A DNA stretch of 64,000 nt. Origin: Micavibrio sp. (GTDB lineage: Bacteria > Pseudomonadota > Alphaproteobacteria > Micavibrionales > Micavibrionaceae). The notes beneath the pieces were generated by a model. It had not been told where the DNA came from. It worked only from the letters and a program-made list of their open reading frames with translations, and did no database searches. Made by a program: the position numbers and the translations under genes. Within the stretch, counting starts at the first letter, position 1; each line of letters opens with the position of its first letter. Where the stretch lies: positions 498,355 through 562,354 of the forward strand of contig JBBAEN010000002.1 in NCBI GenBank assembly GCA_041655955.1. Reading direction: 5' to 3'. Shown here in pieces: positions 5,827 through 27,316 of the stretch.

Positions 5827-6607
5827 AGCCTATCTGACGATCGACGATTCGCCCTCGGACAGGATGGACGATCTCGCCGCCCGTCTTTTTCAAAAATCCA
5901 TTCCGGCGATTTTTTATTGCCGCGGCGATATGCTGGAGCGCAACCTCGGCAGCGCGGCGCGGGCGGCGGCAAAAGGCTTTGTCCTTGCCAACCACACCTA
6001 TTCCCACCGCCGCAGCAGCGAAGAAGACACTGACTGGATCATCGCGGATATAGAGCGCTGCGAACGCCTCATCGAACGGGCCTATCAAAGCGCCGGCGTC
6101 CGGCAGGGCGGGAAATATTTCCGCTTTCCGCATATGGACAGGGGAACGGGGGGCTGGATTGTCGATTACGATTCCTACCCGCCGGAAGAGCGCGCGGCCT
6201 TGCTGGAGATTTTCGCGGGCGGGCTGAATATCGCATCGCTTGAAAAACCCGCCGCCGCCGCGCTTGAAAAAAAAGAAAAGCTTCAGGCCTATTTGAAGGC
6301 AGAGGGCTATAGCCAGCCCTTCCGCAATGTCACGGCGCCATGGTACGGGCGCGGCGAAATCGCGCAGGCGCGGGATTCCTTTTATACTTTCTCCAATTGC
6401 GACTGGATGGTGACGGAGCGCCACCGCGGCAAATGGCCTTATAAAACGGCGGAGGATTTGAAGAACAGGGCGCGTTCCGACGCTTCCTTGTCCGCCGGGG
6501 ACGGCGTCAACGTCATTCTGGCCCATGATCAGGCGGAAATTGTTGACATAACGATGGAATTGATAGAAGACTTGGCCGAAAATGGCATGGAGTTTTTAAC
6601 GGTATAA
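5813..6607 (+). CDS. Polysaccharide deacetylase family protein
   Basis: 264 aa. Motifs YLTIDDSP (TFDD-like) and LANHTYSH (metal-binding His pair) of NodB-type deacetylases. Confidence 0.7.
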   Translation: MMARKAYLTIDDSPSDRMDDLAARLFQKSIPAIFYCRGDMLERNLGSAARAAAKGFVLANHTYSHRRSSEEDTDWIIADIERCERLIERAYQSAGVRQGGKYFRFPHMDRGTGGWIVDYDSYPPEERAALLEIFAGGLNIASLEKPAAAALEKKEKLQAYLKAEGYSQPFRNVTAPWYGRGEIAQARDSFYTFSNCDWMVTERHRGKWPYKTAEDLKNRARSDASLSAGDGVNVILAHDQAEIVDITMELIEDLAENGMEFLTV

Positions 6608-6645
6608 ATTCCGGTCAATAACACAGACTATCAAGAGGGTATGGA

Positions 6646-7458
6646 ATGAAGGATTTCCTTTTATATGTGATTGCCGATTACGGCGATTTGCACGATCTGG
6701 CTTTTGCGGAAGTAACGCAAAGGCTTCAATATGAATTGCGTGATTTGAATGTCGAAACGCGCGCCTATGCGGTTCCGGCCTTTGATACGGTCGCAACGGG
6801 CTTTGCGCTGGCGCAAACGGCGATCAATTCAAAGCTCGGCACGGGCCATAAATTCTACGTGAACACCGCGCCCCGCAAGGATGACCTCGCGCCCCGCGTC
6901 GCGAATGCCGGTGAAGGGCTTGCCTATGTAAAGCTTTATAACGGTGTCGAGATCGTCGCCGTGAATTCCGGCTATTCGCTGTCCTTCGTAAAGGATGCGG
7001 CGGTCGAGATGCGCGAAATCCATTGTGACAGGCACGGCTCGCAATTCCGCTCCCGCGATATCTTCCCGCCGGCCTTCGGCCTGATTGCCCATGGCGATTA
7101 TTCGCGGCTGGGCGACGATATCCGCGCCGCCGTTCCCGATTATCCGAAAAATGCCGTTTGCTATACGGACGGGTACGGCAACATGAAATGTTCGGTCGCT
7201 CCGGCTGATCTTGACGCCATCAGCGGCAGGCATGTGACGCTGGACGTCAATGGCCGCGCCATGGCGGCGCGCGTCGCCGAAGGAATCTTCGGCGTGGCGG
7301 ACGGCGAGTTCTGCCTGTCCAAAGGCTCGTCCGGCTGGACGCTGGAAGACGGGACGAAGGTCGAATTTTCCGAGATCGTCATGCGCGGCGGCAATGCCGC
7401 CAAGGCCTTCGGCAAACCGCCGGGCGGCATCGAAATCAACTGGCGCAAGATTGACTGA
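6646..7458 (+). CDS. SAM hydrolase / SAM-dependent halogenase family (DUF62)-like protein
   Basis: 270 aa. N-terminal VIADYGDLHDLAFAEV resembles the DUF62 TDFG..D.YV block. SQFRSRDIFPPAFG resembles FHGRDIFAPVAA. CYTDGYGNMKCSV resembles the C-terminal IDrFGN block. Assigned by motif resemblance only. Confidence 0.55.
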   Translation: MKDFLLYVIADYGDLHDLAFAEVTQRLQYELRDLNVETRAYAVPAFDTVATGFALAQTAINSKLGTGHKFYVNTAPRKDDLAPRVANAGEGLAYVKLYNGVEIVAVNSGYSLSFVKDAAVEMREIHCDRHGSQFRSRDIFPPAFGLIAHGDYSRLGDDIRAAVPDYPKNAVCYTDGYGNMKCSVAPADLDAISGRHVTLDVNGRAMAARVAEGIFGVADGEFCLSKGSSGWTLEDGTKVEFSEIVMRGGNAAKAFGKPPGGIEINWRKID

Positions 7459-7492
7459 CCGGCATGATGCAATCATAACAGGAATGAACAGG

Positions 7493-7521
7493 CCCGATCA
7501 TCCGCGATCGGGTCTTTCCTT
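7493..7521 (+). terminator. Rho-independent terminator after the DUF62-like gene
   Basis: cccgatc-atccgc-gatcggg hairpin followed by tctttcctt. Confidence 0.4.
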
Positions 7522-7593
7522 ATGGGCTATACGGCGCCATCGCAGGCGCATAAGCCGCGCCCGTTCTGGGAGATAGGGTGGTTTTAGGAAAAA

Positions 7594-7668
7594 TGGTGCC
7601 GTTGAGAGGAATTGAACCTCCGACCCACGCATTACGAATGCGTTGCTCTACCCCTGAGCTACAACGGC
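7594..7668 (-). tRNA. tRNA-Thr (anticodon CGU), CCA encoded
   Basis: Reverse complement folds as a cloverleaf: acceptor GCCGTTG/CAACGGC, D arm GCTC-AGGGGTA-GAGC, anticodon arm ACGCA-TTCGTAA-TGCGT (CGT at 34-36), T arm GGAGG-TTCAATT-CCTCT, then A-CCA. Confidence 0.9.
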
Positions 7669-7810
7669 GCTTTAAAAGAGGCTGGATGCCTTGAACGCGC
7701 TATTCAGTTACCTGTTTTCAAAACGGATTGCAACACCTGAAAACAGCCTTGAGGCTACGAGTTAATTATACATAACGATGGTGTGGCGGGGGATAAGCAG
7801 GATCGGGAAA

Positions 7811-7846
7811 GAGAAAACGCCGCTCTAAAGCGGCGCCTCTTTTTGA
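7811..7846. terminator. Bidirectional intrinsic terminator downstream of the fibre-like gene
   Basis: 7-bp stem CGCCGCT-ctaa-AGCGGCG flanked by an A-run (gagaaaa) and a T-run (cctcttttt). On the minus strand it follows the stop at 7886. Confidence 0.55.
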
Positions 7847-7885
7847 TAGGGCCGGGCAGGATGCCCCAGTCTGGCCGGAAGAATC

Positions 7886-10800
7886 CTACTTCTTATCCTG
7901 CAGGAGTTTTTTGATTTCCTCAATTTCGCCCCGCAGCTTTTCATTGTCGGCTTTCAATGTTTCGATGTCCGTGGCCATCTGCACATTTTCCTGCTGAAGC
8001 TTGCCGGTGATGTCGAAGAGTTGCAGAACTTTCGCGGCAAGGTCGTCGAACATGGTTTTCAGGCTCTTGACCGCCTCGACAAGCGGGGCAATCAGCTGGT
8101 CATATTCGACCGTCAAGAAGCCTTTGCCGTTGCGGCTAACTGCTTCGGGCATGACAGCCTCTACATCCTGCGCGATAACGCCGTAGGCGGCCTCCCCACC
8201 ATCCTTCCATTTATAGTGCTTGCCCGTGATGCCGTTCAACAGGGCGAACGGGTCGGCAAGGTCGGTAATCTCTTCCTTCAGGTTGCGGTCGGAGGTGTGG
8301 AAGAAGGAGGTTGCATAAACACTGCTTCCAAACTGTGCCGCTCCATTATGATTGAGGAACAGCGCGCTTCCGCCAAGTCCGACGTTGCCGTTTGTGGCAC
8401 TAATAGTTATTGGGCGCAATGCGTTAAAGCTTCCGAAGCGATCCCCGCTGTTCGTGAGCAAAAAAGCTACGTTAGTTCCATCATTACGAATAATGAAACC
8501 TGCATGGCTTGCTCCGTTCACAACGCGGAACTGCTGGTTGGTGCCTGTAAGGGCTGCGTTTGCAACAAGCTCTCCTGTAAAGGTCGAGCGCGTATTATCA
8601 ATGGTCAATCTATTCCCTCCAGCCGTAGAGAATCCTATCTGGTTTGCGCCGGGCCTCCACATACCGGTATTTGTATTCCCGATAAATGTGAACCCAGGTT
8701 GACCGACCAGACCTTCACTGGTGGTGACTCTGTTCATCGCAGTAAGGGTGCTACCGGTAATAGTTCCATTAGATGTAGAAATATCTCCGTTGAAGGCGCT
8801 AATGCCTGCGGTACCATTTAAATTTATGGTACCCGTCATGGTTCCGCCCGCGAGCGGGAGGTAGCTGCCGACAATGCCTGAAATAGGCTGCCATGTATTA
8901 TCACCGCGCAGATAGGTTGTTGTATTCCGCGTGCCTGATGCTCCAAGCCTTGCAACATCCACGGTTCCTGTTGCAAGGTTGGTTGCGTTGAGGTTGGTGA
9001 GGCCCGATCCGTTTCCTGTGAAGGTGGCTGTCCCGATATTGATGTTGCCGAAAGTGGATGTAATCGAACCTGCTGCCAAAGCGCCAACACCTGTGATGCC
9101 GGTATAGGAGCCTGACATACGGGCAGCGGGAACGGTGCCTGTCGTCAGATTGGAGGCGTTGAGGTTGGTGAGGCCCGATCCGTTTCCTGTGAAGGTGGCC
9201 GTCCCGATATTGATGTTGCCGAAAGTGGATGTAATCGAACCTGCTGCCAAAGCGCCGACACCTGTGATGCCGGTATAGGAGCCTGACATACGGGCAGCGG
9301 GAACGGTGCCTGTCGTCAGATTGGAAGCGTTAAGATTCGTAAGGCCCGATCCTGAACCTGAGATAGCCGCGCCATGAACCGTTCCTGCGAAAAATCCGTC
9401 TTTCCAGCGTAGGGCCGTTGTGCCGAAATCAATTGTATTGTTGGCGTTGGGCTGGATTATGCCCGTCATGGTTCCGCCCGCGAGCGGGAGATAGACGCCG
9501 TTACCGATAGCGGAGAGGGGCTGCCATGTATTGTCACCGCGCAGGTAGGTCGTGCTGTTACGCGTTCCCGACGTTCCAAGCCTTGCGACATTGACTGTCC
9601 CCGCCGTGAGGTTGGTTGCGTTGAGGTTGGTAAGCGATGCGCCCGATCCGTTGAACAGGCCGCCGAAAACCGTTCCGGCGAAATAGCCGTCCTTCCAGCG
9701 CCGTCCTGTGGCGCCGAAATCAATGGTGTTGGTGGCGTTGGGCTGGATAAGGCCCGTCATCGTGCCTCCGACGAGCGGGAGGAACTTGCCGTCCCCTGCG
9801 GTCGAGATAGCGGCATCGACATAGGATTTGTTGGTGGCGTCGCTGGCTTGTGAAGGGGACTGCACGCCACGCACGAAGTTGGTGTTCATGTTGAGCAGGC
9901 CGGCGATAGAGGCGCCGCCGCTGGCGACGGTCAGGCCGGAATTGACCGTCGTGCCGCCGTTGAGCGTGACGGGGCCGCCAATACGCGTCCCGCCCGTATA
10001 TTCGCTGCTATGGTTGATGGAAAGATAATCGCCGCTGATAACGCCGAGCATTGCGAGGTTGCGCGCTTCACCGCTTGTGGCTGCTCCCCCTTGAATCCAG
10101 ACATCATAGGACGATCCATGCGCCATGCGTGTGGTTCCGCCGATTGTCAGATTGTGGGACGGTGCGGTGTTGACGCCGACGCCTGTGGCGTTGATCGTCA
10201 CGCGGTTTGCGCCGCCCGTTGCAATGCCGATCGTATCGGCGGCGGGGCTGTAGATCCCCGTATTCGGGTCGCCGTTAAAGCCATAGGCCGGAAGGGCCGC
10301 CGTGCCGAGCGCGGGCAGGATCTGGTTCGAGAAGATCGCGTTGCCGCCGCTGACATGGAAGCGGGCAAGCGGCGATGTGCCGATCCCGACGGAACCATCG
10401 CCAATCAACTGCAATATGCCGGCTGTCGATACGGCGCCGGTGCTGGCGTTTACGTAGTCGAAAATAAGGCTGCCGGACGGGTTCGCCGTACCTTGCGTGT
10501 AAAGCTTGAAAGCGTTCGCATTGTTTTGATCGAACAGGATACCGCCGGCTCCGGCTAAGGAGGAGCTGCTTTGGAAGCGGGCCGTGAAGCTGTTCAGGGC
10601 GTTGCCCGCCGAGGCAACCGTCAGGCGGGCGCTGGGCGCGGAACCGATACCGACGCCTGTGGCGTTGACCGTGACTCGGTTCGCGCCGCCCGTCGTAATG
10701 CCGACCGTATCGGCGGCGGGGCTGTATATCCCCGTATTCGGGTCGCCGTTAAAGCCATAGGCCGGAAGGGCCGCGGTGCCGAGCGCGGGCAAAAGCTGGT

Positions 10801-11668
10801 TCGAGAAGATCGCGTTGCCCCCGGCGACGTGCAGTCTTCCGCCCGGCGCCGTCGTGCCGATGCCGACATTGGCATTATCGACATACATATTGGACAGGAA
10901 TGTTACGCCGGTAACGCTTGCGCTCAATTTCTGGATATAGTCCACCTTGACCGAAGGCCTGTTGGGGTCGCTTGTCGAATCGACGCCGAAGACCATTTTT
11001 TCCGTACCGGCGACAAGGTCGCGTTTCCAGACTTCAAGGTCGCGCTTGATCTCGGCGATATCATCGCCCTTCGGCTGCCACAGGCCAAGGCCGAGAGCCT
11101 CGCCGTAAGTGTACTCCATAACGACGTCATCGCTGCCCGCAGGTTTGGTGACATAGGCCGGATGCGCGCCGCAGGTTGTCTGGAAGATGCGGTCGGGGCC
11201 GGATGAAATAATCGCGATAACCGTATTGGTCGAATCCGGGCCGACAGCGTTTGCTCCCGCAAGACGGCGCTGCGCCGTGCCGCCGCAGCCTGCATCGTTG
11301 ATTTTGCTTCCGTGATCCCAGACGCAATAGCCGTACATATTGCCCCATGGATCTTGTTTGGCCGCCCCGATGCCGTTCGGGATCAGTCCCCCGCCGGCGG
11401 GGTGGGGGTTGGAGCCGGGAGCGAGCCATTCCACCGGCTCGTTGGTAAAGTCGTTGTCGCAATCGTCCGACGCCGCCATGATGGACAGCCGTCCCGCGGC
11501 AACCATCGCGTTTTCGGCGACGGTCTGCTTTGTCACCGCCTGCATGCTGCGCACCGGCCCCTTCATGATCGACATGGTCGCCGAACCTATGACGCCGACA
11601 AGGGCGACGGCCCCGAACAAGGCGAAAAAAACATTCCCGGAAATTTTGCTGCGGTTTCTATATGTCAT
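7886..11668 (-). CDS. Tail-fibre-like surface protein with pseudopilin-like N-terminus and C-terminal peptidase S74 intramolecular chaperone domain
   Basis: 1260-aa ORF. Residues 1-11 are basic, 12-34 form one hydrophobic helix, and residues 106-114 read DPWGNMYGY (the GspG/PulG pseudopilin signature is DPWGN.Y). The centre is built from reiterated modules typical of phage tail fibres: LPL(A/V)GGTMTG, LTNLNA(S/T)NL..GTV, YLRGDNTWQP and FNGDPNTGIYSPAADT. The C-terminus (7889..8293) begins with SDRNLK (Ser1126/Lys1131, the S-x4-K dyad spacing of endosialidase-type chaperone domains) and ends in a coiled-coil tail. Confidence 0.85.
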   Translation of the reverse strand: MTYRNRSKISGNVFFALFGAVALVGVIGSATMSIMKGPVRSMQAVTKQTVAENAMVAAGRLSIMAASDDCDNDFTNEPVEWLAPGSNPHPAGGGLIPNGIGAAKQDPWGNMYGYCVWDHGSKINDAGCGGTAQRRLAGANAVGPDSTNTVIAIISSGPDRIFQTTCGAHPAYVTKPAGSDDVVMEYTYGEALGLGLWQPKGDDIAEIKRDLEVWKRDLVAGTEKMVFGVDSTSDPNRPSVKVDYIQKLSASVTGVTFLSNMYVDNANVGIGTTAPGGRLHVAGGNAIFSNQLLPALGTAALPAYGFNGDPNTGIYSPAADTVGITTGGANRVTVNATGVGIGSAPSARLTVASAGNALNSFTARFQSSSSLAGAGGILFDQNNANAFKLYTQGTANPSGSLIFDYVNASTGAVSTAGILQLIGDGSVGIGTSPLARFHVSGGNAIFSNQILPALGTAALPAYGFNGDPNTGIYSPAADTIGIATGGANRVTINATGVGVNTAPSHNLTIGGTTRMAHGSSYDVWIQGGAATSGEARNLAMLGVISGDYLSINHSSEYTGGTRIGGPVTLNGGTTVNSGLTVASGGASIAGLLNMNTNFVRGVQSPSQASDATNKSYVDAAISTAGDGKFLPLVGGTMTGLIQPNATNTIDFGATGRRWKDGYFAGTVFGGLFNGSGASLTNLNATNLTAGTVNVARLGTSGTRNSTTYLRGDNTWQPLSAIGNGVYLPLAGGTMTGIIQPNANNTIDFGTTALRWKDGFFAGTVHGAAISGSGSGLTNLNASNLTTGTVPAARMSGSYTGITGVGALAAGSITSTFGNINIGTATFTGNGSGLTNLNASNLTTGTVPAARMSGSYTGITGVGALAAGSITSTFGNINIGTATFTGNGSGLTNLNATNLATGTVDVARLGASGTRNTTTYLRGDNTWQPISGIVGSYLPLAGGTMTGTINLNGTAGISAFNGDISTSNGTITGSTLTAMNRVTTSEGLVGQPGFTFIGNTNTGMWRPGANQIGFSTAGGNRLTIDNTRSTFTGELVANAALTGTNQQFRVVNGASHAGFIIRNDGTNVAFLLTNSGDRFGSFNALRPITISATNGNVGLGGSALFLNHNGAAQFGSSVYATSFFHTSDRNLKEEITDLADPFALLNGITGKHYKWKDGGEAAYGVIAQDVEAVMPEAVSRNGKGFLTVEYDQLIAPLVEAVKSLKTMFDDLAAKVLQLFDITGKLQQENVQMATDIETLKADNEKLRGEIEEIKKLLQDKK
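8981..9322 (-). repeat. Tandem 171-bp x2 duplication inside the fibre-like gene
   Basis: 8981..9151 and 9152..9322 differ at only two positions by my alignment (ggtggCtg vs ggtggCcg context, and gcgccAac vs gcgccGac). Both copies encode the identical 57-aa unit LTNLNASNLTTGTVPAARMSGSYTGITGVGALAAGSITSTFGNINIGTATFTGNGSG. A decayed third copy starts at 9323. Confidence 0.9.
10176..10346 (-). repeat. 171-bp repeat module, copy B (pairs with 10650..10820)
   Basis: Aligns with 10650..10820 at a constant 474-nt offset with about a dozen mismatches by my count. Encodes NAIFSNQ(I/L)LPALGTAALPAYGFNGDPNTGIYSPAADT(I/V)GI(A/T)TGGANRVT(I/V)NATGVG. Confidence 0.85.
10650..10820 (-). repeat. 171-bp repeat module, copy A (pairs with 10176..10346)
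   Basis: See 10176..10346. Confidence 0.85.
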
Positions 11669-12080
11669 GGCGTTTGACTGTCCTTGAGCAGGGCATAAAG
11701 GCGGGCTGGAAGCGCGCCTGAATAATAAATCGGGTTAAAAAATCTTGCATGAGGCGCAAAAACTTTGAGCTGGACGAATGATCCTGCCAAGAGAATACAT
11801 GAATATGGCTGTCAGTGGAATATATGTGCGGTTTTTTGCCAGTATCGGCTCTGGCCGGAAAAAGCCCCGCTCTCTTGTACGATAATTCCATTTCGTCCCC
11901 TTTTTCAATGGCTTAACATAGTTTTACGTTGCTGCCATACCCTTCTTCTTATTCTGTGGCTATGGGAAACAGGCCATAGCTTCCGGTTCTTCTGCCGATT
12001 CTTACCCATTTTCGCATAAATTTCGTTTATTTTTGGTAACTATTACGAAAATAATCACCGGGCGAGCAGGGACGCAAGGC

Positions 12081-12102
12081 GATTTATATTAAAATCAATA
12101 GG
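12081..12102. promoter_or_regulatory. AT-rich shared motif, copy C (candidate operator)
   Basis: The reverse complement cctattgatTTTAatataaatc equals 58412..58429 (cctattgatatataaatc) with a 4-nt insertion. It lies in the gap between the fibre-like gene and ORF 12225. Confidence 0.35.
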
Positions 12103-12224
12103 TTAGGGATACTGTGGGTAAGCCGTTCCACAGGCTGTTGCGGTTCGGAAAGAGTTTGTAGAATAAAGCCTGATGTATTATTACAATCAGGCTGTACATA
12201 ATGTCAGTCAAAGGGGGATTGGAA

Positions 12225-12686
12225 ATGTTTATTTCAGGCGGGCAGCAAAAGCTTCTTCTTGCCAATTTATTGTTAAACGCTTTTCAAAAGGCGGGCGGTT
12301 TTATCGCGAGCGAAGTCCCGGCAACGGCCAGAAATCTGGCGGGAATCTATTTTTCGGCCCTTGAAAAATACCCGGGGCCGATTGTCGGGATGGGGTTTTT
12401 AGGGCCGCATATCTCGTTGCCCCCCGCCATATGGAAGGCTCAGCCGGCCGAAACTGCCCCTGACAAGGACTTTGTCGAGGTGAGGGGCGCCCGGGTTCCG
12501 GCGCCCCGTCCGGGCGTCAATGTCTATGATTTGCGTGCCGAACAGGAAGAAGTGTACGGAGAAATCGTTCCAACCTATGCGGACGGGGAAGTCCGTTACG
12601 GGCATATAAAATCTCCTTATAAACACAGGGCCAGAAGCCTGAACGAAGGGCTTGCCATGCAAGAACAGGCGCGCATGACGCCCTAA
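12225..12686 (+). CDS. Hypothetical protein (orphan)
   Basis: Track ORF 12201..12686. The ATG at 12225 is preceded by agggggatt (SD-like). I recognise no motif. It may be non-coding. Confidence 0.4.
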   Translation: MFISGGQQKLLLANLLLNAFQKAGGFIASEVPATARNLAGIYFSALEKYPGPIVGMGFLGPHISLPPAIWKAQPAETAPDKDFVEVRGARVPAPRPGVNVYDLRAEQEEVYGEIVPTYADGEVRYGHIKSPYKHRARSLNEGLAMQEQARMTP

Positions 12687-12732
12687 GGCCCGATAATCGC
12701 TTGCCTTTGGGGGGAGGGGAGGCTAAATCTCT

Positions 12733-12836
12733 CCCCCGGAAGGTCGGCGCGGGCGGGGCTTCGCCCAATCCGGTCAGGGCCGAGAGGCAGCAGCCGCAAG
12801 CGTATTTTGCACCGGGTCGCGTCCGGCCTTCCACTT
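12733..12836 (+). ncRNA. ffs: Signal recognition particle RNA (small bacterial SRP / 4.5S-like), approximate ends
   Basis: ccGGTCAGGGCC-GAGA-GGCAGCAGCCGCAAG matches the universally conserved SRP domain IV (GGUCAGGUCC-GGAA-GGAAGCAGCC in E. coli) with a GNRA tetraloop. Flanking ggaaggtcggcgcg / cgcgtccggccttcc can close the helix. The position immediately upstream of dnaX is the usual ffs location. Ends not determined. Confidence 0.55.
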
Positions 12837-12951
12837 TTCTCCCTCTCTTCCCTTACAGGCTTTTTATTTTTCGCGTTTTATCCCCGCTATCCATGGCCGA
12901 TCTCCCGCGGGAAGATTGCCTTCAATCCGGAATCGCTCTAGGTAATAGGGC

Positions 12952-14637
12952 ATGTCCGATGCACAAGCTGAATACCGCGTTCTGGCGCGGAAATACCGCC
13001 CGAAAAATTTCGACGATCTGATAGGGCAGGATGCGCTGGTGCGCACACTGCGCAATGCGATCGAGAGCGGGCGCATCGCCCACGCCTTTATGCTGACCGG
13101 CATTCGCGGGGTCGGGAAGACGACGACGGCACGGATTATCGCCAAGGCGCTCAATTACACGGGAGCCGACGGGACGGCGGGGCCGACCACGGGGCCGACC
13201 GACGATTGCGAAATCTGCCGCGCCATTACCGAAGACCGCCACCCCGACGTGATGGAGATGGACGCGGCATCGCGCACCGGCGTCGATGACATCCGCGAAA
13301 TTCTCGACGGCGTCCGCTATGCGCCCGTTTCCGCGCGTTATAAAATCTACATCATCGACGAAGTCCACATGCTGTCCAAGAACGCGTTCAACGCGCTTTT
13401 GAAAACGCTGGAAGAACCGCCGCCCCATGTGAAATTCATCTTCGCGACGACGGAGATCAGGAAGGTTCCGGTGACTGTTCTCTCGCGCTGTCAGCGTTTC
13501 GACCTGCGCCGGATAGAGGCCGATACGCTCGCCGCCTATTACAAGACAATCTGCGAAAAAGAGGGCGTGACCGCGGACGGCGAAGCGCTCGACCTCATCG
13601 CGCGCGCGGCGGACGGCTCCGCGCGGGACGGGCTTTCGATGCTCGATCAGGCGATTGCGCTCAGCCAGGGCGAGATTACCGCGCAAAAGGTCAAGGACAT
13701 GCTCGGCCTTGCCGACCGCACGCTTATCTTGAACCTGCTCGATAACGCCGTGCGCGGCGAATGCGAAGCGGCTCTTTCCGTCATGGACGATCTCTACCGC
13801 AAGGGCGCCGATCCGTCCGTCATTATCGGCGACATGCTGGATCTGGCGCATCTGCTTACCAAGCTGCGTGCCGTTCCCGCGCTGCGGGATTCAACGCAAG
13901 CCATGGCGAAGGAAGAGATGAACCGCGCCGCCGATCTCGCGGCAAAGCTTTCCATGCCTGCCTTGGGACGGATCTGGCAGATTTTGCTCAAAGGGCTGAG
14001 CGAAGTGAATTACGCGCCTGTCCCGCAAAAGGCGGCGGAGATGGTTCTCATCCGTCTGGCCTATTCCGCGGATCTTCCGGACCCCGCCGATCTGATTAAA
14101 AAAATCAGGGAAGGCGGCATCGCCCCTTCCGCCGCCGCGCCTGCGCCCCTCCCGCAAGGCCCGTCCGGCGGCGGCGGCCATGCCGCGATCAATCAGGCGG
14201 CGGGCGGCGGCGGCGCGGTCACGGCGCTCGCGGTGCAACCGGCCATGGAAAACGCCCCGGCCCCTGTCACGGAAATCGCCTGCCTTGCCGATATGCAGGC
14301 CGTGCTGCGCCAGTCGGGTCATATGATGCTGGCTTCGCAAGTTTATCTTTATGTGCATCCGGTCAAGCTGGAAAAAGAGCGGTTCGAGTTCCGCCCCGCC
14401 GAACAGGCTTCGCCGTCGCTGGCGCAGGAATTGACGCAGGCGCTCAAAGCCGCGACCGGCAAGCGCTGGATGGTCAGCGTTTCGACCGCGCAGGGCGGGC
14501 CGACACTGGCGCAGGCCGCGCGCGCGGAAGAAGAGGCGCGCTTTACCGCTCTCCGCGCCGATCCGCTGGTCGCGCAAGTTTTGGAAATTTTCCCCGATGC
14601 GGAATTAAAAGCCATTCATATGAAAGAGGACGAATAG
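12952..14637 (+). CDS. dnaX: DNA polymerase III subunit gamma/tau
   Basis: 561 aa. YRVLARKYRPKNFDDLIGQD..., Walker A GIRGVGKTTTARI, and the zinc-module region (DDCEICRAI). Confidence 0.95.
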   Translation: MSDAQAEYRVLARKYRPKNFDDLIGQDALVRTLRNAIESGRIAHAFMLTGIRGVGKTTTARIIAKALNYTGADGTAGPTTGPTDDCEICRAITEDRHPDVMEMDAASRTGVDDIREILDGVRYAPVSARYKIYIIDEVHMLSKNAFNALLKTLEEPPPHVKFIFATTEIRKVPVTVLSRCQRFDLRRIEADTLAAYYKTICEKEGVTADGEALDLIARAADGSARDGLSMLDQAIALSQGEITAQKVKDMLGLADRTLILNLLDNAVRGECEAALSVMDDLYRKGADPSVIIGDMLDLAHLLTKLRAVPALRDSTQAMAKEEMNRAADLAAKLSMPALGRIWQILLKGLSEVNYAPVPQKAAEMVLIRLAYSADLPDPADLIKKIREGGIAPSAAAPAPLPQGPSGGGGHAAINQAAGGGGAVTALAVQPAMENAPAPVTEIACLADMQAVLRQSGHMMLASQVYLYVHPVKLEKERFEFRPAEQASPSLAQELTQALKAATGKRWMVSVSTAQGGPTLAQAARAEEEARFTALRADPLVAQVLEIFPDAELKAIHMKEDE

Positions 14638-15782: not shown

Positions 15783-16954
15783 CGCCTGCCGTTCCGCCCC
15801 CACAGCCACAGGCCGATCCCGCCAAGGACGAGAAGCTGCCCGCCAATCCATAAAAGAGCGTCACCGATGGCGCCCCGTTCCGAAATAAGGCCGACGATAA
15901 GGCTGGCCGGGATGAACAGGAAATGCACCATCAGGTTCGCCGTTGAAAGAACCGTCGCGCGGCGTTCCGGCCCGATGCGGGTATTGATGCCCTCGTTGAT
16001 GCGCGGCTGGGCCATGGCGTAAACGAGCGTCCCGCTCAAAAACAGGATAATGCCGAACCATATGGACGTCACCGCCGCAAGCGCGAAGCAGCACAGCACG
16101 AGGAGCACGCCCATGCCGCCGAGCGCCGCGCGGTTGCTGCCGCAGCGATCGATACGGTGGCTGAACTGCCCCGCCACACCGCCGATGATAAAGCTTGCCG
16201 TCATGATGACGCCGAACCATATGACGGGAAGCCCCGCCGCCATGTAATAAGGCTGCTGCGTCCAGAGCATCAATTTGGTCGTACACATGATGACGGTTGA
16301 AACCAGAATGATGCCGGTGATTTCCGGATGGCCGGTCAGGGCGTATTTCATCGTCTTGAAAACATCGTAAAAGACGTGCTTTTCGGCGCTCTTTTGGAAC
16401 CGTTTGGGTTCGCGCACGCATGCAATCGCGATCATCGCGCCGAGCAGGGCTGCCATGTCAAAGACAAGCGGCAGCTTTGGATGGACGAAGAACAGGAATC
16501 CCCCCGCAAGACAGGACAGGGCCGTTCCGTAAAAAGTGGCCCCGTGCCGCTGCCCGTCAAGGCGGCGATAGTCGTCTTCGCGCCCCTCTTCATGCAAACG
16601 GTCGTAAAGAAGCGCCGTATTCGTTCCAGAGTTCAGGGCGACGGCGATGCCGATAACGGCCTGCGCCGAGGTCGCCATCCAAAATCCTTCGGCGAGCATC
16701 AGCATGGCGTAACCGCACAGCCCGAAAAACCCGCCAAGGACGAGGGTGGAGCGGCGTTTCCACATATCCGAAATCCACCCTGAAGGCACTTCGGAAAGCA
16801 GGACGACGGCGGAAAAAACCGCTTCGCCTATCAAAAAGTCGCGGAAGGTCAGCCCGATCGAGTTGTAATAAGGAAAGATAACGGGCAAAAGGAACAGCAT
16901 ATGCGTGAATATGCCGTGCGCGTTGACAAGCCTTATATCGCGTTTCAGGGACAT
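15749..16954 (-). CDS. MFS transporter
   Basis: About 12 TM segments. I prefer the ATG at 16954 (MSLKRD...) because GGAGG sits 5 nt upstream. The track start is 16966. It overlaps the stop of the upstream GNAT gene. Confidence 0.8.
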   Translation of the reverse strand: MSLKRDIRLVNAHGIFTHMLFLLPVIFPYYNSIGLTFRDFLIGEAVFSAVVLLSEVPSGWISDMWKRRSTLVLGGFFGLCGYAMLMLAEGFWMATSAQAVIGIAVALNSGTNTALLYDRLHEEGREDDYRRLDGQRHGATFYGTALSCLAGGFLFFVHPKLPLVFDMAALLGAMIAIACVREPKRFQKSAEKHVFYDVFKTMKYALTGHPEITGIILVSTVIMCTTKLMLWTQQPYYMAAGLPVIWFGVIMTASFIIGGVAGQFSHRIDRCGSNRAALGGMGVLLVLCCFALAAVTSIWFGIILFLSGTLVYAMAQPRINEGINTRIGPERRATVLSTANLMVHFLFIPASLIVGLISERGAIGDALLWIGGQLLVLGGIGLWLWGRNGRRYAASSTITGT

Positions 16955-17526
16955 CGCAGCCTCCATTCCACCTGCAATGCGGGCAGGATGGCGGGATCGG
17001 TCATGGCGTAATGATGTTCGCCCAGCATCGCCCCGTCACTGCATCTTGCGTGGGATTCGGGCGTGTAGCCTGTTTTCGCAAAGCCCAGTTTTTCAATGAT
17101 GCGGCGGCTTTTATCATTCCCCTCAAAATAATTGATCAGGATTTTTTGCGCATCCAAGCCACTGAAGCCGTAATGGATTGTGGCATTGGTCGCCTCGGTC
17201 GCAAGCCCCTTGCCGAGGAAATCTTTCGCAGCCCAATAGCCCGTTTCATAAATTCCGTCGCTCTTTTTGGTAAGGCCCGTGGACAGCGCAAAGCGCCCGC
17301 TCTTGCGGCAAAGCGCTATCAGGGGAAGGCTCCCGTCCTGCGCCGCCACCTCTATATAGGCGCGGGTCGCCTCAAGCGTGTTGAACCCTTCATAGGCCCA
17401 CGACATCCAGAGCTGGAGATCCTCCCAGACCTCGTTCATCGCCCGGTTGATTTCCACGGCGTCATCTTGTGTAGGGAGGCGCAGGACGAGGCGCTCCGTT
17501 AAGATTTCAACAGTGTTCATGCTCAT
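16945..17526 (-). CDS. GNAT family N-acetyltransferase (RimJ/RimL-like)
   Basis: TERLVLRLPTQDD...ETGYWAAKDFLGKGLATEA...FEGNDKSRRIIEKLGF. The ATG at 17526 forms an ATGA overlap with the stop of the upstream paralog. The track start is 17538. Confidence 0.8.
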   Translation of the reverse strand: MSMNTVEILTERLVLRLPTQDDAVEINRAMNEVWEDLQLWMSWAYEGFNTLEATRAYIEVAAQDGSLPLIALCRKSGRFALSTGLTKKSDGIYETGYWAAKDFLGKGLATEATNATIHYGFSGLDAQKILINYFEGNDKSRRIIEKLGFAKTGYTPESHARCSDGAMLGEHHYAMTDPAILPALQVEWRLRCP

Positions 17527-18140
17527 TCTTTCCCCCATGTAACATGTAATTCAGGCAGGTTTTCCGTGTCATAACGCGCATACCAGTGCCGCGCGGCGGC
17601 TGTGCCGTCATTGAGCCGCTCGCTGTCTTCCAGAACGCCCTTCTTTTCAAAGCCGAGTTTTTCAATGACTCGCTGGCTGGCGATATTGCCGCCTGCGTGG
17701 CATATGCCGACTTTCTTTGCGCCGAGTGCGCCAAAGGCATAGCGGAGCAGGGCATTGGTGCTTTCGCCGGCATAGCCCTTTCCCGTTTCCGACGTGCGCA
17801 CCCAATAGCCGATCTCGAAATAGCCGCCGTGCCAGTCCATACGGTGCAGGCCCGTGCCGATAATGAGCTTGCCGGTGGATTTTTCAAAACCGAGCATCAT
17901 CACGTCCTTGCGTAAAATGAATTCGGCATGGCTTTCCCGTGCGACGATTTCCATTTTTTCGGCGCTGTTCGGCTCCTTTGCCCAATCCATCCATTTATTC
18001 AGCTCCGCAAAGCTTTCCTCTTGCGCTTCCGCCATCGCCGCCCCGTCGCCCGGCAGGACGTTCCTCAAAATCAGGCGCGGCGTTTCGATCGGCATGGGAA
18101 TGTCGATGAGGATGGGGTTTTTCTTTTCTGTCGTCGTCAT
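17523..18140 (-). CDS. GNAT family N-acetyltransferase (RimJ/RimL-like), paralog
   Basis: TPRLILRNVLPGD...EIGYWVRTSETGKGYAGEST...HAGGNIASQRVIEKLGF. Same architecture as the downstream gene. Confidence 0.8.
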   Translation of the reverse strand: MTTTEKKNPILIDIPMPIETPRLILRNVLPGDGAAMAEAQEESFAELNKWMDWAKEPNSAEKMEIVARESHAEFILRKDVMMLGFEKSTGKLIIGTGLHRMDWHGGYFEIGYWVRTSETGKGYAGESTNALLRYAFGALGAKKVGICHAGGNIASQRVIEKLGFEKKGVLEDSERLNDGTAAARHWYARYDTENLPELHVTWGKE

Positions 18141-18634
18141 GCGAGCCTCACTTCATAATGGTGTAAAAAGGATTTTTGGCCGTCGCCGAAAACACGTTCT
18201 TCTTTTCCGGTGGGCTTGAACCCGAAGGCCTGGTTGGCGCGGCGGGACGCTTCGTTGCCTTCGCGGTGGCCGACAAGGATACGGCCGAAAAAGCCGCTTT
18301 CGGCGGCCCATTGCATCCGGCTTTCATAAAGAAGCCGTGAATAGCCTTGGCCGCGGTAAGCTTCGCGGATATAGGCCATGGCCAGAAAAGCCGTCTTGCC
18401 GGAAGGATCGTCCCCGTCGCCAAAAACCGCGCCGATGCCGACAAGGGTTCCCGCGTCGAACAGGCCGAAACAGCGCTGGCGCTCGCCGGAAAGAATTTCC
18501 TGCCAGTCCGCGTCCGCCCATAGTGCCTCGCTTTCCAGCCTTCCCGTATATCTATCGGGATGAAGGCGCAGTGCCTCCAGCCGGATGGCCTTGAATATGG
18601 CCCAATCGTTTTTATCCAATGCTCTGACAAACAT
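18137..18634 (-). CDS. GNAT family N-acetyltransferase
   Basis: Track ORF 18137..18820 trimmed to ATG 18634 (MFVRALDKNDWAIFKAIRLEAL...), which is preceded by aaaggagag. Acetyl-CoA block YIREAYRGQGYSRLL. ATGA overlap with the next GNAT gene. Confidence 0.75.
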   Translation of the reverse strand: MFVRALDKNDWAIFKAIRLEALRLHPDRYTGRLESEALWADADWQEILSGERQRCFGLFDAGTLVGIGAVFGDGDDPSGKTAFLAMAYIREAYRGQGYSRLLYESRMQWAAESGFFGRILVGHREGNEASRRANQAFGFKPTGKEERVFGDGQKSFLHHYEVRLA

Positions 18635-26593: not shown

Positions 26594-27316
26594 ATGCGCC
26601 GATTGTCCGAACGCTATCCAGCCGATTGCGGCGGCGTCCTTGTCTGGATATTGATCGCCGTCGCCCTGTTCGCCGCCTTGTCCTACGCCATGATGCGGGA
26701 CGGCGGCACGGGAAGCGCCACCGGCATAATGGGCGAGGCGCAGGCAAAGCTCTACGCGGCGGAAATCATCGCGCACCACGATGCGGTGCGGTCGGCGGTG
26801 CAGCGTCTTCGCATACGCGGCTGTAGCGACACGGATATCAGTTTTCAAAACGCGATACAGGGGTGGACCAACCCCACCGCGCCGCAGGATAAATCCTGTC
26901 ATGTCTATGAACCCTCCGGAGGCGGCCTGACCTATGCGCTGTTTCCGCCGGAAGGGGCGCTGGATGCCTCTAAAAAGACGGGAAGCATGTATCAAAAACC
27001 TTATCCCAATGCGGGGTATCAATTCTATCAGGTGGGAACCGATCTGAACGACCTGGCCTTTCAGAATAACTGGATCCGGCGCGAGGTCTGTATCCAGATC
27101 AACCAGATGCTGGGCATAGATAATCCGGGCGGGGAGCCGCCGCGGGAAATAAACGATGCTGCCGCCCTTATTTTTGTCGGAGTGTACGGCCCGAATGTCG
27201 CCGACACGATCGGCGACGATGCGGGGAGCGGGCTTGCGGGCAAAAGGGCTTTTTGCCGCTGGAGCGGGGCAGAAGTAAGTAATTATCAATACAACCAGAT
27301 TTTGATCGCCCGCTGA
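26594..27316 (+). CDS. Hypothetical secreted/anchored protein with pilin-like N-terminal helix
   Basis: Track ORF 26378..27316 trimmed to ATG 26594, which is preceded by aggggagga; the longer version would read through the terminator hairpin. MRRLSERYPADCGG-VLVWILIAVALFAALSYAMM... is followed by an amphipathic stretch (EAQAKLYAAEIIAHHDAVRSAVQRL) and 4 Cys. Confidence 0.65.
   Translation: MRRLSERYPADCGGVLVWILIAVALFAALSYAMMRDGGTGSATGIMGEAQAKLYAAEIIAHHDAVRSAVQRLRIRGCSDTDISFQNAIQGWTNPTAPQDKSCHVYEPSGGGLTYALFPPEGALDASKKTGSMYQKPYPNAGYQFYQVGTDLNDLAFQNNWIRREVCIQINQMLGIDNPGGEPPREINDAAALIFVGVYGPNVADTIGDDAGSGLAGKRAFCRWSGAEVSNYQYNQILIAR

What the first reader, a model, noticed from the sequence alone, without database searches (positions are those of the whole stretch)
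7886..11668. Lone chromosomal chimera: pseudopilin-like N-terminus + phage tail-fibre shaft + S74 self-cleaving chaperone domain
Seen directly in the 1260-aa ORF:
- It starts with a short basic leader ending in Gly (MTYRNRSKISG).
- A single hydrophobic helix follows (NVFFALFGAVALVGVIGSATMSIM).
- About 70 residues later comes DPWGNMYGY, the signature I know from GspG/PulG major pseudopilins (LPKDPWGN.Y).
- The next ~850 residues are reiterated tail-fibre modules.
- The last 135 residues begin with SDRNLK. This is the Ser-x4-Lys dyad spacing of the endosialidase/tail-spike intramolecular chaperone (peptidase S74), which cleaves itself off after trimerisation.

The helix lacks the canonical Phe1/Glu5 of assembled pilins. 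That absence is otherwise known from tip-located minor pseudopilins such as GspK.

The gene is monocistronic, with its own terminator at 7811..7846. Its neighbours are a tRNA, the SRP RNA candidate and dnaX, not capsid, baseplate or integrase genes.

Inference: this is a host-domesticated tail fibre, displayed from the envelope or from the tip of a pilus/pseudopilus as an adhesin or receptor-recognition fibre. I do not know of a described pilin-to-tail-fibre fusion of this kind.
Basis: partly seen in the sequence, partly recalled or inferred. Interest (0 to 1): 0.75.

Follow-up and report, generated by a model that had tools for sequence, protein, structure and literature searches.

The report
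Pilin-anchored tail-fibre adhesin of Micavibrio
A predatory bacterium (Micavibrio) carries a chromosomal gene for a phage-tail-fibre-like trimeric fibre on an uncharacterised, pilin-like N-terminal anchor; it is one of over a thousand such proteins, not a one-off, and probably a surface or pilus-tip adhesin for gripping prey.

Summary
The 1260-aa ORF, basic leader ending in Gly, hydrophobic helix, DPWGNMYGY motif, repeated fibre modules, C-terminal Peptidase_S74 domain with SDxxxK, terminator and housekeeping neighbours are all present.

- **Not lone.** The first ~225 residues form a conserved, unannotated domain. It heads at least 1092 protein clusters of 240-6785 aa, mostly in Micavibrio-like Alphaproteobacteria and often in tandem arrays. 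The C-termini are mosaic: S74, T4 gp34-like, PilV-shaft-like, C1q, BclA, RCC1.
- **Not detectably GspG-like.** Pfam, hhalign and Foldseek all fail on the head domain.
- **Pilin-like at the N-terminus.** The leader and helix are extremely conserved: (Q/E)(S/R/A)G|(N/S)(V/I)FF…G14, never Glu5. They align in register with prepilins.
- **Linked to a pilus machine.** The same leader type heads the pilins of a conserved operon (A24 prepilin peptidase, secretin, GspE-like ATPase, GspF-like platform) found in a Micavibrio sp. MAG. In one alphaproteobacterial genome that operon ends with an N-domain+S74 fibre gene. The window holds an orphan pilin of this family at 26594-27316.

The closest known parallels are R64 PilV, the trimeric tip pilin CofB and the Bdellovibrio MAT fibres. 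I judge it a new variant of a known kind.

The parts
7886..11668 (-). Whole gene, 1260 aa. NCBI names it 'tail fiber domain-containing protein [Micavibrio sp.]' (MFA5593288.1).
11636..11668 (-). Residues 1-11: basic leader MTYRNRSKISG ending in the invariant Gly. This is the putative prepilin-peptidase site G11|N12.
   Evidence: Leader logo from 264 unique N-termini: R(-6), Q/E(-3), S/R/A(-2), G(-1), N/S(+1). hhalign puts G11 on the G(-1) of PulG.
11564..11635 (-). Residues 12-35: hydrophobic helix NVFFALFGAVALVGVIGSATMSIM. It is alpha-1N-like, has Gly at +14 and no Glu at +5.
   Evidence: Near-invariant across the family. Predicted helical with pLDDT 85-94.
11477..11563 (-). Residues 36-64: amphipathic continuation of the helix (KGPVRSM…), alpha-1C-like.
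   Evidence: AlphaFold helix 12-64 and 7-35 of the truncated model.
11069..11476 (-). Residues 65-200: globular head. It has 4 conserved Cys, a DCDxD…EP loop, DPWGxxYGYCVWDHG, ISSGPDR and GSDD motifs. No relative is known by sequence or by fold.
   Evidence: Invariant columns. pLDDT about 90-97. No Pfam, NCBIfam or PDB hit.
11327..11353 (-).
   Evidence: Present and family-invariant (D106, W108, Y114). It is not alignable to GspG by profile.
10859..11068 (-). Residues 201-270: low-confidence linker or neck, with the conserved motif …KVDYIQKLS…VTFLS.
   Evidence: pLDDT 54-62. The motif is conserved in homologues.
8582..10858 (-). Residues 271-1029: reiterated tail-fibre shaft modules.
   Evidence: DNA repeats, PHROGs tail-fibre hits, weak phage hits.
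8961..9302 (-). Two tandem 57-aa shaft repeats (171 nt, 95% identical). A near-identical protein in another assembly has only one copy.
8294..8581 (-). Residues 1030-1125: T4 gp34-like trimerisation domain plus the distal end. This would be the exposed tip after S74 cleavage.
   Evidence: Pfam Gp34_trimer. PDB sequence hits to gp34 and Mu tail fibre S. GC3 drops to 0.46-0.50 over residues 900-1100.
8138..8293 (-). Residues 1126-1177: Peptidase_S74 intramolecular chaperone core. The SDRNLK dyad is S1126/K1131.
7886..8137 (-). Residues 1178-1260 plus the stop codon: the rest of the chaperone module and a C-terminal coiled coil.
   Evidence: Weak coiled-coil Pfam hits over residues 1205-1260. Alignment to 6f45 reaches residue ~1220.
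7808..7837 (-). Intrinsic terminator of the gene.
26594..27316 (+). Orphan pilin-like gene, 240 aa counted from the internal Met (leader MRRLSERYPADCGG|VLVWILIAVALFAALSYA). It belongs to the same family as the pilins of the A24-linked pilus operon of a Micavibrio sp. MAG. It is a probable partner subunit of the same filament system.
   Evidence: tblastn E=6e-5. Full-length alignment at 29% identity. No Pfam hit.

Best explanation
The gene encodes a trimeric surface fibre built from phage-tail-fibre modules and carried on a conserved ~225-residue N-terminal module of a new kind.

**Proposed mechanism**
1. The protein enters the inner membrane through its N-terminal helix (inferred).
2. The leader is removed after Gly11 by the short A24 prepilin peptidase found beside a conserved pilus operon in Micavibrio relatives (inferred).
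3. Three chains trimerise from the C-terminus, guided by the S74 chaperone. The chaperone then cuts itself off at Ser1126, releasing a ~15-kDa fragment and exposing the gp34-like tip. The domain and dyad are shown here. The cleavage is inferred from the S74 family.
4. The three pilin-like modules seat the fibre at the tip of that type-IV-filament machine (secretin, GspE-like ATPase, GspF-like platform, E5-less pilins). The ETEC tip pilin CofB is described as forming such a trimer. The fibre is then pushed out through the secretin (inferred).
5. On the cell surface the fibre binds a prey envelope glycan. It is one of several interchangeable paralogues that together set what the predator can attach to (inferred by analogy with PilV of R64 and the MAT fibres of Bdellovibrio).
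For: **Fibre and S74**
- Pfam gives S74 and Gp34_trimer above their cut-offs.
- The catalytic dyad aligns.
- The last 354 aa hit 984 phage records.

**Organism**
- NCBI names the protein as from Micavibrio sp..
- dnaX carries DUF3646.

**Family**
- There are 51 word-indexed homologues and 1092 representative clusters. The domain is always N-terminal.
- The genome scan confirmed 104 related stretches; 76 loci were kept. With the other loci fetched, 86 loci plus the window hold 112 N-domain ORFs, including tandem triplets.
- Tips are mosaic. Thirteen of 49 members have S74; others carry C1q, BclA_C, RCC1, Lcl_C or a Shufflon_N shaft.

**Pilin-like anchor**
- The leader and helix are far more conserved than a Sec signal. 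They include G(-1) and G(+14) in prepilin register.
- AlphaFold predicts a continuous 53-residue helix plus a three-stranded head at pLDDT 82-90.
- Four conserved Cys suggest an exported head domain (inference).

**Link to a machine**
- In L081 the N-domain+S74 gene is the last gene of an operon: secretin, ASH-domain protein, T2SSE, T2SSF, two unknowns, two pilins.
- On the Rhodoferax plasmid a homologue ends a similar operon and is followed by a 'tail fiber assembly protein' gene.
- In a Micavibrio sp. MAG the same operon sits beside a Peptidase_A24 gene. Its pilins start …ERG|NVLFLILIAVAL, matching the family's …SG|NVFFALFGAVAL.
- The window itself carries an orphan pilin of that family.

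**Literature**
- M. aeruginosavorus is reported to have dispersed pil genes and a 'T2SS' lacking GspC, G, H and K (PMC3189940).
- CofB is described as a trimeric modular tip pilin, and modular pilins including pilin-S74 architectures are catalogued (PMC8179133).
- MAT fibres of Bdellovibrio are surface-exposed, S74-processed and glycan-binding (PMC10769870; PMC12428579).
Against: - No canonical pilin signature is present. Glu5 is absent in all 264 N-termini. There is no N_methyl, T2SSG or TadE Pfam hit.
- The head has no detectable pilin fold. Foldseek's best E-value was 2.6 for the full model and 5 for the head-only model.
- hhalign against GspG (probability 45%) and against the operon's own pilins (probability 12%) is weak and essentially limited to the N-terminus.
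- Only 2 of about 86 loci put the gene next to the machine. The window locus is not one of them.
- The Rhodoferax homologue has an ordinary Sec-type signal instead of the pilin-like helix.
- The machine and the A24 peptidase were not seen in this genome, only in other Micavibrio-like genomes.
- The family also occurs in non-predators (Stappia, Stella, Hyphomicrobium, Devosia), often on mobile elements. Prey binding therefore cannot be its general function.
- Passage of a >1000-aa trimeric fibre through a secretin has not been shown.
Confidence: 0.5

Rival explanations
1. This is a MAT-like surface fibre that has nothing to do with a pilus. The N-terminal helix is a Sec signal or signal anchor. 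The conserved head binds a component of the predator's own envelope. The fibre crosses the outer membrane by another route, as proposed for the Bdellovibrio MAT proteins.
For: - No pilin signature or pilin fold was found.
- The Rhodoferax homologue carries a normal Sec signal ahead of the same head domain.
- Most loci, including the window, have no pilus genes nearby.
- The MAT N-domain likewise has no homologue in the PDB and is thought to bind a surface element (PMC10769870).
Against: - Sec signal peptides are not conserved residue by residue. Here +1 to +18 and the KGP at +25 to +27 are near-invariant across hundreds of clusters.
- The same leader type is used by the pilins of an A24-peptidase-linked operon in a Micavibrio sp. 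MAG.
- Two independent operons end with an N-domain gene.
Confidence: 0.3
2. This is a mating or cell-cell contact adhesin of a mobile element, equivalent to PilV. It would select recipient cells for conjugation, not prey.
For: - Homologues in Stappia, Stella vacuolata and a metagenomic contig sit next to serine recombinases, ArdC, a relaxase and ParB.
- The Rhodoferax copy is on a conjugative plasmid.
- Four of 49 family members match the PilV shaft part of Shufflon_N.
Against: - The window gene lies among housekeeping genes. dnaA is about 50 kb away.
- No recombinase, relaxase or invertible repeats are present.
- The protein has no Shufflon_N hit.
- Micavibrio-like genomes carry several chromosomal paralogues.
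Confidence: 0.08
3. This is a relic of a prophage, tailocin or gene-transfer agent: a tail-fibre gene left behind, or serving a particle encoded elsewhere.
For: Homology to T4-like distal and proximal long tail fibres and to many PHROGs tail-fibre families.
Against: - No phage gene was found among the genes annotated in the 64 kb.
- The N-domain has no match in 50,697 phage genomes or in BFVD structures.
- A conserved membrane helix and a disulfide-bonded head make no sense on a virion fibre.
- Identity to phage fibres is only 26-38%.
Confidence: 0.03

Closest known systems
PilV of the IncI1 plasmid R64 thin pilus (type IVb), the shufflon tip adhesin
   Same: - A pilin-type N-terminus carries a long shaft and variable C-terminal receptor-binding ends that recognise surface polysaccharide of a partner cell.
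- It is the last gene of a pilus operon, as in L081 and Rhodoferax.
- Some family members match the shaft part of Pfam Shufflon_N, positions ~202-305.
- PilV plus phage-tail-collar fusions have been described (PMC9881135).
   Different: - The window protein has no Shufflon_N hit, no recombinase and no invertible segments.
- Variation here comes from paralogues and module mosaics, not from DNA inversion.
- The N-domain is unrelated in sequence and lacks the canonical prepilin motif.
- An S74 chaperone is present.
CofB (ETEC CFA/III), described as a trimeric modular minor pilin exposed at the tip of a type IVb pilus; TcpB of V. cholerae, recalled from memory, is similar
   Same: A pilin module is followed by a C-terminal extension, and the protein is described as forming a trimer exposed on the filament (PMC8179133). 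This geometry would let a trimeric fibre sit on a filament.
   Different: - These are canonical pilins with Glu5.
- Their extensions are short beta-domains, not >1000-aa tail-fibre shafts.
- They have no S74 self-cleaving chaperone.
- No sequence or fold similarity was detected here.
Modular type IV pilins of architecture IPR012902-IPR030392 (pilin + S74), catalogued by Raynaud et al. 2021
   Same: [quoted passage not shown]
   Different: - Those proteins carry the canonical prepilin methylation motif. This family does not and so was invisible to that survey.
- The catalogued proteins were read as possible peptidases and were not studied.
MAT (mosaic adhesive trimer) fibres of Bdellovibrio bacteriovorus
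   Same: - Both occur in a predatory bacterium.
- Both form a multi-paralogue family of ~1000-aa trimeric fibres homologous to phage fibres.
- Both have a constant N-terminal anchoring domain with no homologue in the PDB.
- Both have tips that are either S74-processed or of other folds (PMC10769870; compare).
   Different: - MATs have a cleaved Sec signal and a ~130-aa beta-rich N-domain. Here there is a conserved membrane helix plus a helix/beta head.
- The phylum differs (Alphaproteobacteria).
- This family is also found in non-predators.
- I could not compare the sequences directly.
[quoted passage not shown]
   Same: - A leader ending (Q/R)xG.
- Gly at +14.
- A long alpha-1 helix.
- A DPWG…Y.Y motif before the first strand, then an S.G.D and a DD(I/V) motif before the later strands.
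   Different: - No T2SSG or N_methyl hit, and no Glu5.
- The head is twice the size and has two disulfides.
- hhalign and Foldseek do not connect the heads.

Membership tests
Peptidase S74 / endosialidase-type intramolecular chaperone domain | Profile match above the curated threshold | tested here: met
   PF13884: 50.7 bits against a cut-off of 22, E=2e-13, residues 1126-1177 covering profile positions 1-57 of 58.
Peptidase S74 / endosialidase-type intramolecular chaperone domain | Catalytic Ser-x4-Lys (SDxxxK) at the start of the domain | tested here: met
   S1126-D-R-N-L-K1131 aligns with SDRRIK of 6f45. It starts at profile position 1.
Peptidase S74 / endosialidase-type intramolecular chaperone domain | C-terminal position after a trimeric fibre or spike | tested here: met
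   It follows Gp34_trimer (residues 1030-1089) and tail-fibre repeats.
Peptidase S74 / endosialidase-type intramolecular chaperone domain | Autoproteolytic release after trimerisation | not testable with these tools
   Needs expression of wild type against S1126A.
Type IV pilin (class III signal peptide) | Short hydrophilic leader ending in Gly, then ~21 hydrophobic residues | tested here: met
   MTYRNRSKISG|NVFFALFGAVALVGVIGSATMSIM. G(-1) is invariant. It is in register with PulG by hhalign.
Type IV pilin (class III signal peptide) | Glu at +5 and the N-methylation motif (PF07963 / IPR012902) | tested here: not met
   +5 is A, T or M in 264 N-termini and never E. No N_methyl hit, while the PulG control hits at E=3e-10.
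Type IV pilin (class III signal peptide) | Long alpha-1 helix packed against an antiparallel beta-sheet head, recognisable as a pilin fold | tested here: inconclusive
   AlphaFold gives helix 12-64 plus strands 113-118, 149-155 and 182-187 at high confidence. Foldseek finds no pilin in the PDB.
Type IV pilin (class III signal peptide) | Encoded with, or dependent on, a type IV filament machine and an A24 prepilin peptidase | tested here: inconclusive
   Met for relatives: the L081 operon, the Rhodoferax operon, and the A24-linked operon in a Micavibrio sp. MAG. The window has only an orphan pilin gene at 26594-27316.
Type IV pilin (class III signal peptide) | Cleavage by the prepilin peptidase and incorporation into a filament | not testable with these tools
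   Experimental.
GspG/PulG major pseudopilin | T2SSG domain (PF08334), or profile or fold similarity of the head | tested here: not met
   No Pfam hit at E<=1. hhalign aligns 27 N-terminal columns only. A profile search of PDB sequences finds no pseudopilin. Foldseek finds none.
R64-type PilV shufflon adhesin | Shufflon_N constant region, and recombinase-driven switching of C-terminal segments | tested here: not met
   No PF04917 hit in this protein. No recombinase gene and no convincing inverted repeats at 6500-13000. Four of 49 relatives match only the shaft part of the profile.
Bdellovibrio MAT fibre family | Sec signal plus the conserved ~130-aa beta-rich MAT N-domain | not tested
   No MAT sequence was at hand. 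From the paper's description the N-terminal architecture differs (PMC10769870).
Bdellovibrio MAT fibre family | Paralogous trimeric fibres with a constant N-domain and mosaic S74 or non-S74 tips, in a predator | tested here: met
Prophage, tailocin or GTA tail fibre | Neighbouring virion, baseplate or integrase genes, or an N-terminal domain shared with virion fibres | tested here: not met
   Housekeeping genes throughout the parts of the 64 kb that I annotated. The N-domain is absent from 50,697 phage genomes and from BFVD.

The most novel reading that the evidence does not exclude
Micavibrio-like Alphaproteobacteria may have an undescribed class of type IV filament. Its features would be:
- a short A24 peptidase;
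- a secretin, an ASH-domain protein, a GspE-like ATPase and a GspF-like platform;
- pilins without Glu5 or the methylation motif.

The tip subunit would be chosen from a genome-wide repertoire of N-domain proteins. Each would be a homotrimeric, S74-matured, phage-tail-fibre-like receptor binder. The predator would then use a pilus with swappable phage-type 'host-range' fibres to select and hold prey. Relatives on plasmids and ICEs of non-predators would use the same device to choose mating partners.
Probability: 0.35. Interest if true: 0.8.

Novelty: new variant of a known kind. Interest (0 to 1): 0.6.

Why it matters
How epibiotic predators such as Micavibrio recognise and hold their prey is unknown. 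The only molecular lead in any predator is the MAT fibre family of Bdellovibrio, and how those fibres are anchored is itself unsolved.

This finding supplies three things:
- a concrete, testable candidate family of prey-recognition fibres in a second, unrelated predator lineage;
- a candidate mounting device, namely an uncharacterised pilus operon with its own prepilin peptidase;
- a sequence signature, (Q/E)xG|N(V/I)FF…GYCVWDHG, that retrieves over a thousand unannotated proteins.

It also shows that surveys of 'modular pilins' keyed on the canonical methylation motif miss a large family. If the pilus-tip model holds, it links phage receptor-binding modules, S74 chaperones and type IV filaments in one machine. 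It would also suggest a way to re-target predatory bacteria by swapping tips.

Tried and rejected
- **Sequence searches on the N-domain.** Pfam, NCBIfam and a profile search of PDB sequences gave nothing for residues 1-1000. The only PDB hits were to tail-fibre neck motifs in the homologues' C-termini.
- **Foldseek.** I ran the 264-residue model against the PDB and BFVD, and a head-only model (pLDDT 89.7) against the PDB. Nothing scored below E=0.8.
- **hhalign.** The N-domain against a GspG alignment matched only the leader and transmembrane segment. Four of the five GspG rows were checked against PDB sequences; the XcpT row was recalled from memory. The N-domain against the operon pilins aligned in register at 12% probability.
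- **Short N-terminal segments.** Family members and operon pilins gave no N_methyl, TadE or Tad hit. I had recalled a resemblance to TadG-type 'GN(V/I)A…FAL' N-termini from memory; that idea was not supported.
- **Prophage or mobile-element context.** The parts of the window I annotated are housekeeping genes and there are no invertible repeats.
- **Neighbouring unknown ORFs.** The 161-aa ORF at 12201-12686 and the 270-aa ORF at 6646-7458 have no counterpart beside other family members.
- **tblastn of machine proteins against all fetched loci.** Among the loci fetched for an N-domain gene, only L081 and the Rhodoferax plasmid locus L086 carry the operon next to that gene.
- **Finding the machine in this MAG.** I could not look for it. 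One look-up of a window protein at 31315-32778 found no record.

Full report
**1. The observation**

- It starts with an 11-residue basic leader ending in Gly.
- An uncharged 24-residue stretch follows.
- DPWGNMYGY lies at residues 106-114.
- A long Gly/Thr/Asn-rich region follows whose repeats are visible at the DNA level. A 171-nt tandem pair is 95% identical, a 197-nt pair is 88% identical, and there are two more pairs.
- The C-terminus begins SDRNLK.

Pfam places Peptidase_S74 at residues 1126-1177 (50.7 bits, cut-off 22) and the T4 gp34 trimerisation domain at residues 1030-1089. Twenty-two PHROGs families match; sixteen are tail-category, mostly tail fibre. Ser1126 and Lys1131 align with the SDRRIK of the phage S16 distal fibre. 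A good intrinsic terminator follows the stop codon.

The flanks are tRNA-Thr, SRP RNA, dnaX, ybaB, motAB, glucokinase and transporters. The rest of the window that I annotated is also housekeeping: bipA, rsmB, rpe, radA, purF, der, bamB, icd, RNase E, groESL, rpsT, dnaA. I found no phage, integrase, relaxase or pilus-machine gene.

**2. Whose gene it is**

The exact protein is in NCBI as 'tail fiber domain-containing protein [Micavibrio sp.]', on contigs of up to 890 kb. Micavibrio is an obligate epibiotic predator that attaches to other Gram-negative bacteria and feeds from outside. NCBI files it under Pseudobdellovibrionaceae. The genome paper places it by phylogenomics (PMC3189940), and from general knowledge it is an alphaproteobacterium; the dnaX DUF3646 domain is consistent with that.

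**3. The N-terminal 225 residues are a large, unannotated family, so the protein is not a lone chimera**

A word-indexed search with residues 1-271 found 51 proteins at 37-56% identity. Most are 400-475 aa and they have quite different C-termini. An exhaustive profile search of 1.84 billion cluster representatives gave these counts:

| E-value threshold | Clusters |
|---|---|
| ≤ 1e-3 | 1092 |
| ≤ 1e-10 | 905 |
| ≤ 1e-30 | 704 |

The domain always sits at the N-terminus, in proteins of 240 to 6785 aa.

In one genome per species, 104 stretches encode the domain and 76 loci were kept.
- Most are Micavibrio or Micavibrio-like MAGs, often with several copies per genome.
- Non-predators also carry it: Stappia, Stella vacuolata, Nitratireductor, Hyphomicrobium, Devosia, Mesorhizobium.

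Across the 86 loci fetched plus the window I counted 112 N-domain ORFs. Tandem pairs or triplets occur in at least a dozen loci.

A Pfam census of 49 members shows mosaic C-termini:

| Pfam family | Members of 49 |
|---|---|
| Peptidase_S74 | 13 |
| Gp34_trimer | 5 |
| Shufflon_N (shaft part of PilV) | 4 |
| Phage_T7_tail | 4 |

Gly-rich, Lcl_C, RCC1, EPTP, BclA_C, C1q, Gp10_C and Hint domains also occur. Several of these, from general knowledge, form trimers (C1q, BclA_C, gp34).

In one 203-kb contig three N-domain paralogues of ~330 aa are followed by a separate Sec-signal protein with fibre repeats and an S74 domain. That is a split version of the window's fusion.

**4. Is the N-domain a pseudopilin?**

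The specific claim of a GspG signature fails.
- There is no T2SSG or N_methyl hit, even on isolated N-terminal segments. A PulG control hits both.
- A family profile finds no pseudopilin among PDB sequences.
- hhalign against a GspG alignment aligns only 27 columns, the leader and transmembrane segment, at 45% probability.
- Two AlphaFold models were built: the full module (pLDDT 82) and the head with alpha-1C (pLDDT 89.7, pTM 0.84). Neither finds a pilin, nor anything else, in the PDB or BFVD.
- The head carries four conserved Cys, a DCDxD…EP loop and the GYCVWDHG motif. In practice it is a new domain.

The more general claim of a pilin-type N-terminus has real support.
- In 264 distinct N-termini the consensus is R(-6)…(Q/E)(-3)(S/R/A)(-2)G(-1)|(N/S)(V/I)F(F/L)(A/T/M)LF(G/A)AV(A/G)(L/M)VG(+14)V(L/I)GA…M(K/R)GP(+27).
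- That degree of residue-by-residue conservation is not seen in Sec signal peptides. It is typical of the alpha-1N segment of pilins.
- The Gly at -1 and the Gly at +14 are in register with PulG.
- AlphaFold draws one continuous helix from residue 12 to 64, with three strands packed after it.
- Glu5 is never present.

**5. A machine that uses the same kind of N-terminus**

The only plasmid hit is on Rhodoferax ferrireducens T118. It is the last gene of an operon with two secretins, a T2SS/T4P ATPase, a GspF-type platform and small proteins with KG|F… leaders. A 'tail fiber assembly protein' gene follows. That homologue itself has a Sec-type signal, which counts against the pilin reading.

Among the alphaproteobacterial loci, L081 (a 1.65-Mb chromosome) has a related operon. 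It runs response regulator, secretin, ASH/DUF1573 protein, T2SSE, T2SSF-like protein, two unknowns, then two pilin-like genes (…QENG|NALFLILIAVALFAG and …SESG|NVLIYIFVAVALLAG). An N-domain protein of 1138 aa ending in S74 comes next.

The first of those pilins has 1853 homologues. In a Micavibrio sp. MAG (L087) and in another assembly (L089/L090) the whole operon recurs. A short Peptidase_A24 (154-172 aa) is transcribed divergently from it. The pilins start …NERG|NVLFLILIAVALFAAL and …AERG|SALVYILIAIALLAAL.

Compared with the target's …KISG|NVFFALFGAVALVG, positions -1, +1, +2, +4 and +9 to +12 are identical.

The window itself holds an orphan member of this pilin family at 26594-27316. Its leader is …ADCGG|VLVWILIAVALFAALSYA, and it is 29% identical to the L087 pilin over its full length. 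This genome therefore does encode subunits of that system.

The ARL-13 genome paper reports dispersed pil genes, eight prepilin-type proteins, and a 'T2SS' in which GspC, G, H and K could not be found (PMC3189940). That fits this operon, but I did not verify the identity.

**6. Mechanism**

The most economical reading has five steps.
1. The N-terminal helix inserts in the inner membrane.
2. The A24 peptidase removes the leader.
3. The S74 domain drives trimerisation from the C-terminus and then cleaves at Ser1126, exposing the gp34-like end.
4. The three pilin-like modules cap the filament. CofB of type IVb pili is described as forming a trimer exposed on the filament (PMC8179133).
5. The fibre is displayed through the secretin.

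In a predator the obvious ligand is a prey surface glycan. The parallels are PilV of R64, which selects recipients through LPS (PMC9881135), and the Bdellovibrio MAT fibres. The MAT fibres are surface-exposed, S74-processed and glycan-binding, and they have a constant N-domain and mosaic tips (PMC10769870; PMC12428579).

What is shown: the domains, the dyad, the family, the conservation of the leader, and the operon linkage in relatives. Everything about processing, mounting and ligand is inference.

Two details fit modular evolution of the tip.
- GC3 falls from 0.7-0.8 in the first 700 codons to 0.46-0.50 in codons 900-1100.
- A near-identical protein from another assembly differs only by lacking one 57-aa shaft repeat.

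**7. Rivals**

- *(a) A MAT-like fibre anchored by its head to the predator's envelope, with the helix acting only as a signal or anchor (0.3).* This is favoured by the missing pilin signature and fold and by the Sec-type Rhodoferax homologue. It is disfavoured by the conservation of the helix and the shared leader.
- *(b) A PilV-like mating adhesin of a mobile element (0.08).* This is plausible for the Stappia, Stella and plasmid copies, which sit beside serine recombinases, ArdC, a relaxase and ParB. It does not fit this chromosomal locus.
- *(c) A phage, tailocin or GTA relic (0.03).* There are no phage genes nearby, and the N-domain is absent from 50,697 phage genomes.

**8. Novelty**

Pilin-plus-fibre adhesins and predator fibre families are both known. 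Pilin-S74 architectures have been listed (PMC8179133). This is therefore not categorically new.

What is new:
- the N-domain itself, which has no annotation and no structural relative;
- its non-canonical prepilin-like leader;
- its size as a family;
- its link to an uncharacterised A24-dependent filament operon in Micavibrio-like bacteria.

I rate it a new variant of a known kind, with interest 0.6.

Noticed in passing
window 26594-27316 (+): An orphan 240-aa gene with no Pfam hit. It belongs to the pilin family of the A24-linked pilus operon of Micavibrio-like genomes (leader …ADCGG|VLVWILIAVALFAALSYA). The mechanical ORF starts 72 codons upstream at a TTG.
   Followed up: yes
L087 1-11133; L089/L090 794-11467; L081 300-13381: A conserved, apparently undescribed type-IV-filament operon: a short Peptidase_A24 transcribed divergently, then response regulator, secretin, ASH/DUF1573 protein, T2SSE, T2SSF, two unknowns and two E5-less pilins. 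The pilin family has 1853 homologues.
   Followed up: partly
window 8961-9302: The 57-aa shaft repeat is present twice here but once in an otherwise near-identical protein from an ENA assembly (1203 against 1260 aa). This is either real copy-number variation or repeat collapse in assembly.
   Followed up: partly
window 8370-8970 (codons ~900-1100 of the gene): GC3 drops to 0.46-0.50, against 0.7-0.8 in the 5' half of the gene. This suggests the distal tip module was acquired from a lower-GC source.
   Followed up: partly
L006 8056-14206: Three tandem ~330-aa N-domain paralogues are followed by a separate 946-aa protein with a Sec signal, fibre repeats and S74. This is a split counterpart of the window's fusion. 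Tandem triplets of long N-domain genes recur in Micavibrio loci L058, L060 and L065.
   Followed up: partly
L012 8954-13108; L037 8361-15108; L003 2428-8750: In non-predatory Alphaproteobacteria and on a plasmid-like contig, the N-domain genes sit directly beside serine recombinase (Resolvase/HTH_7) genes, ArdC, a relaxase and ParB. This may indicate invertase-controlled or mobile-element-borne versions. I did not check these loci for invertible segments.
   Followed up: no
L086 18890-19582: On the Rhodoferax plasmid the N-domain fibre gene is followed by an annotated 'tail fiber assembly protein', then a sulfotransferase and an adenylyl-sulfate kinase. A tyrosine recombinase lies 7 kb downstream.
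   Followed up: no
window 12201-12686 (+): A 161-aa ORF divergent from the fibre gene. It has no family hit and no counterpart at other family loci, so its reality and function are unknown. The 530-bp intergenic region between it and the fibre gene is AT-rich (GC 0.49).
   Followed up: partly
window 16945-18820 (-): Three consecutive GNAT acetyltransferase genes next to an MFS transporter.
   Followed up: no
window 28103-29752 (+): A heparinase II/III-like protein (polysaccharide lyase family) in a predator genome. It could act on prey or biofilm polysaccharide.
   Followed up: no
window ~61958-63463 (+): dnaA lies near the right end of the window (seen through locus L009). The fibre gene is therefore about 50 kb from dnaA.
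   Followed up: partly
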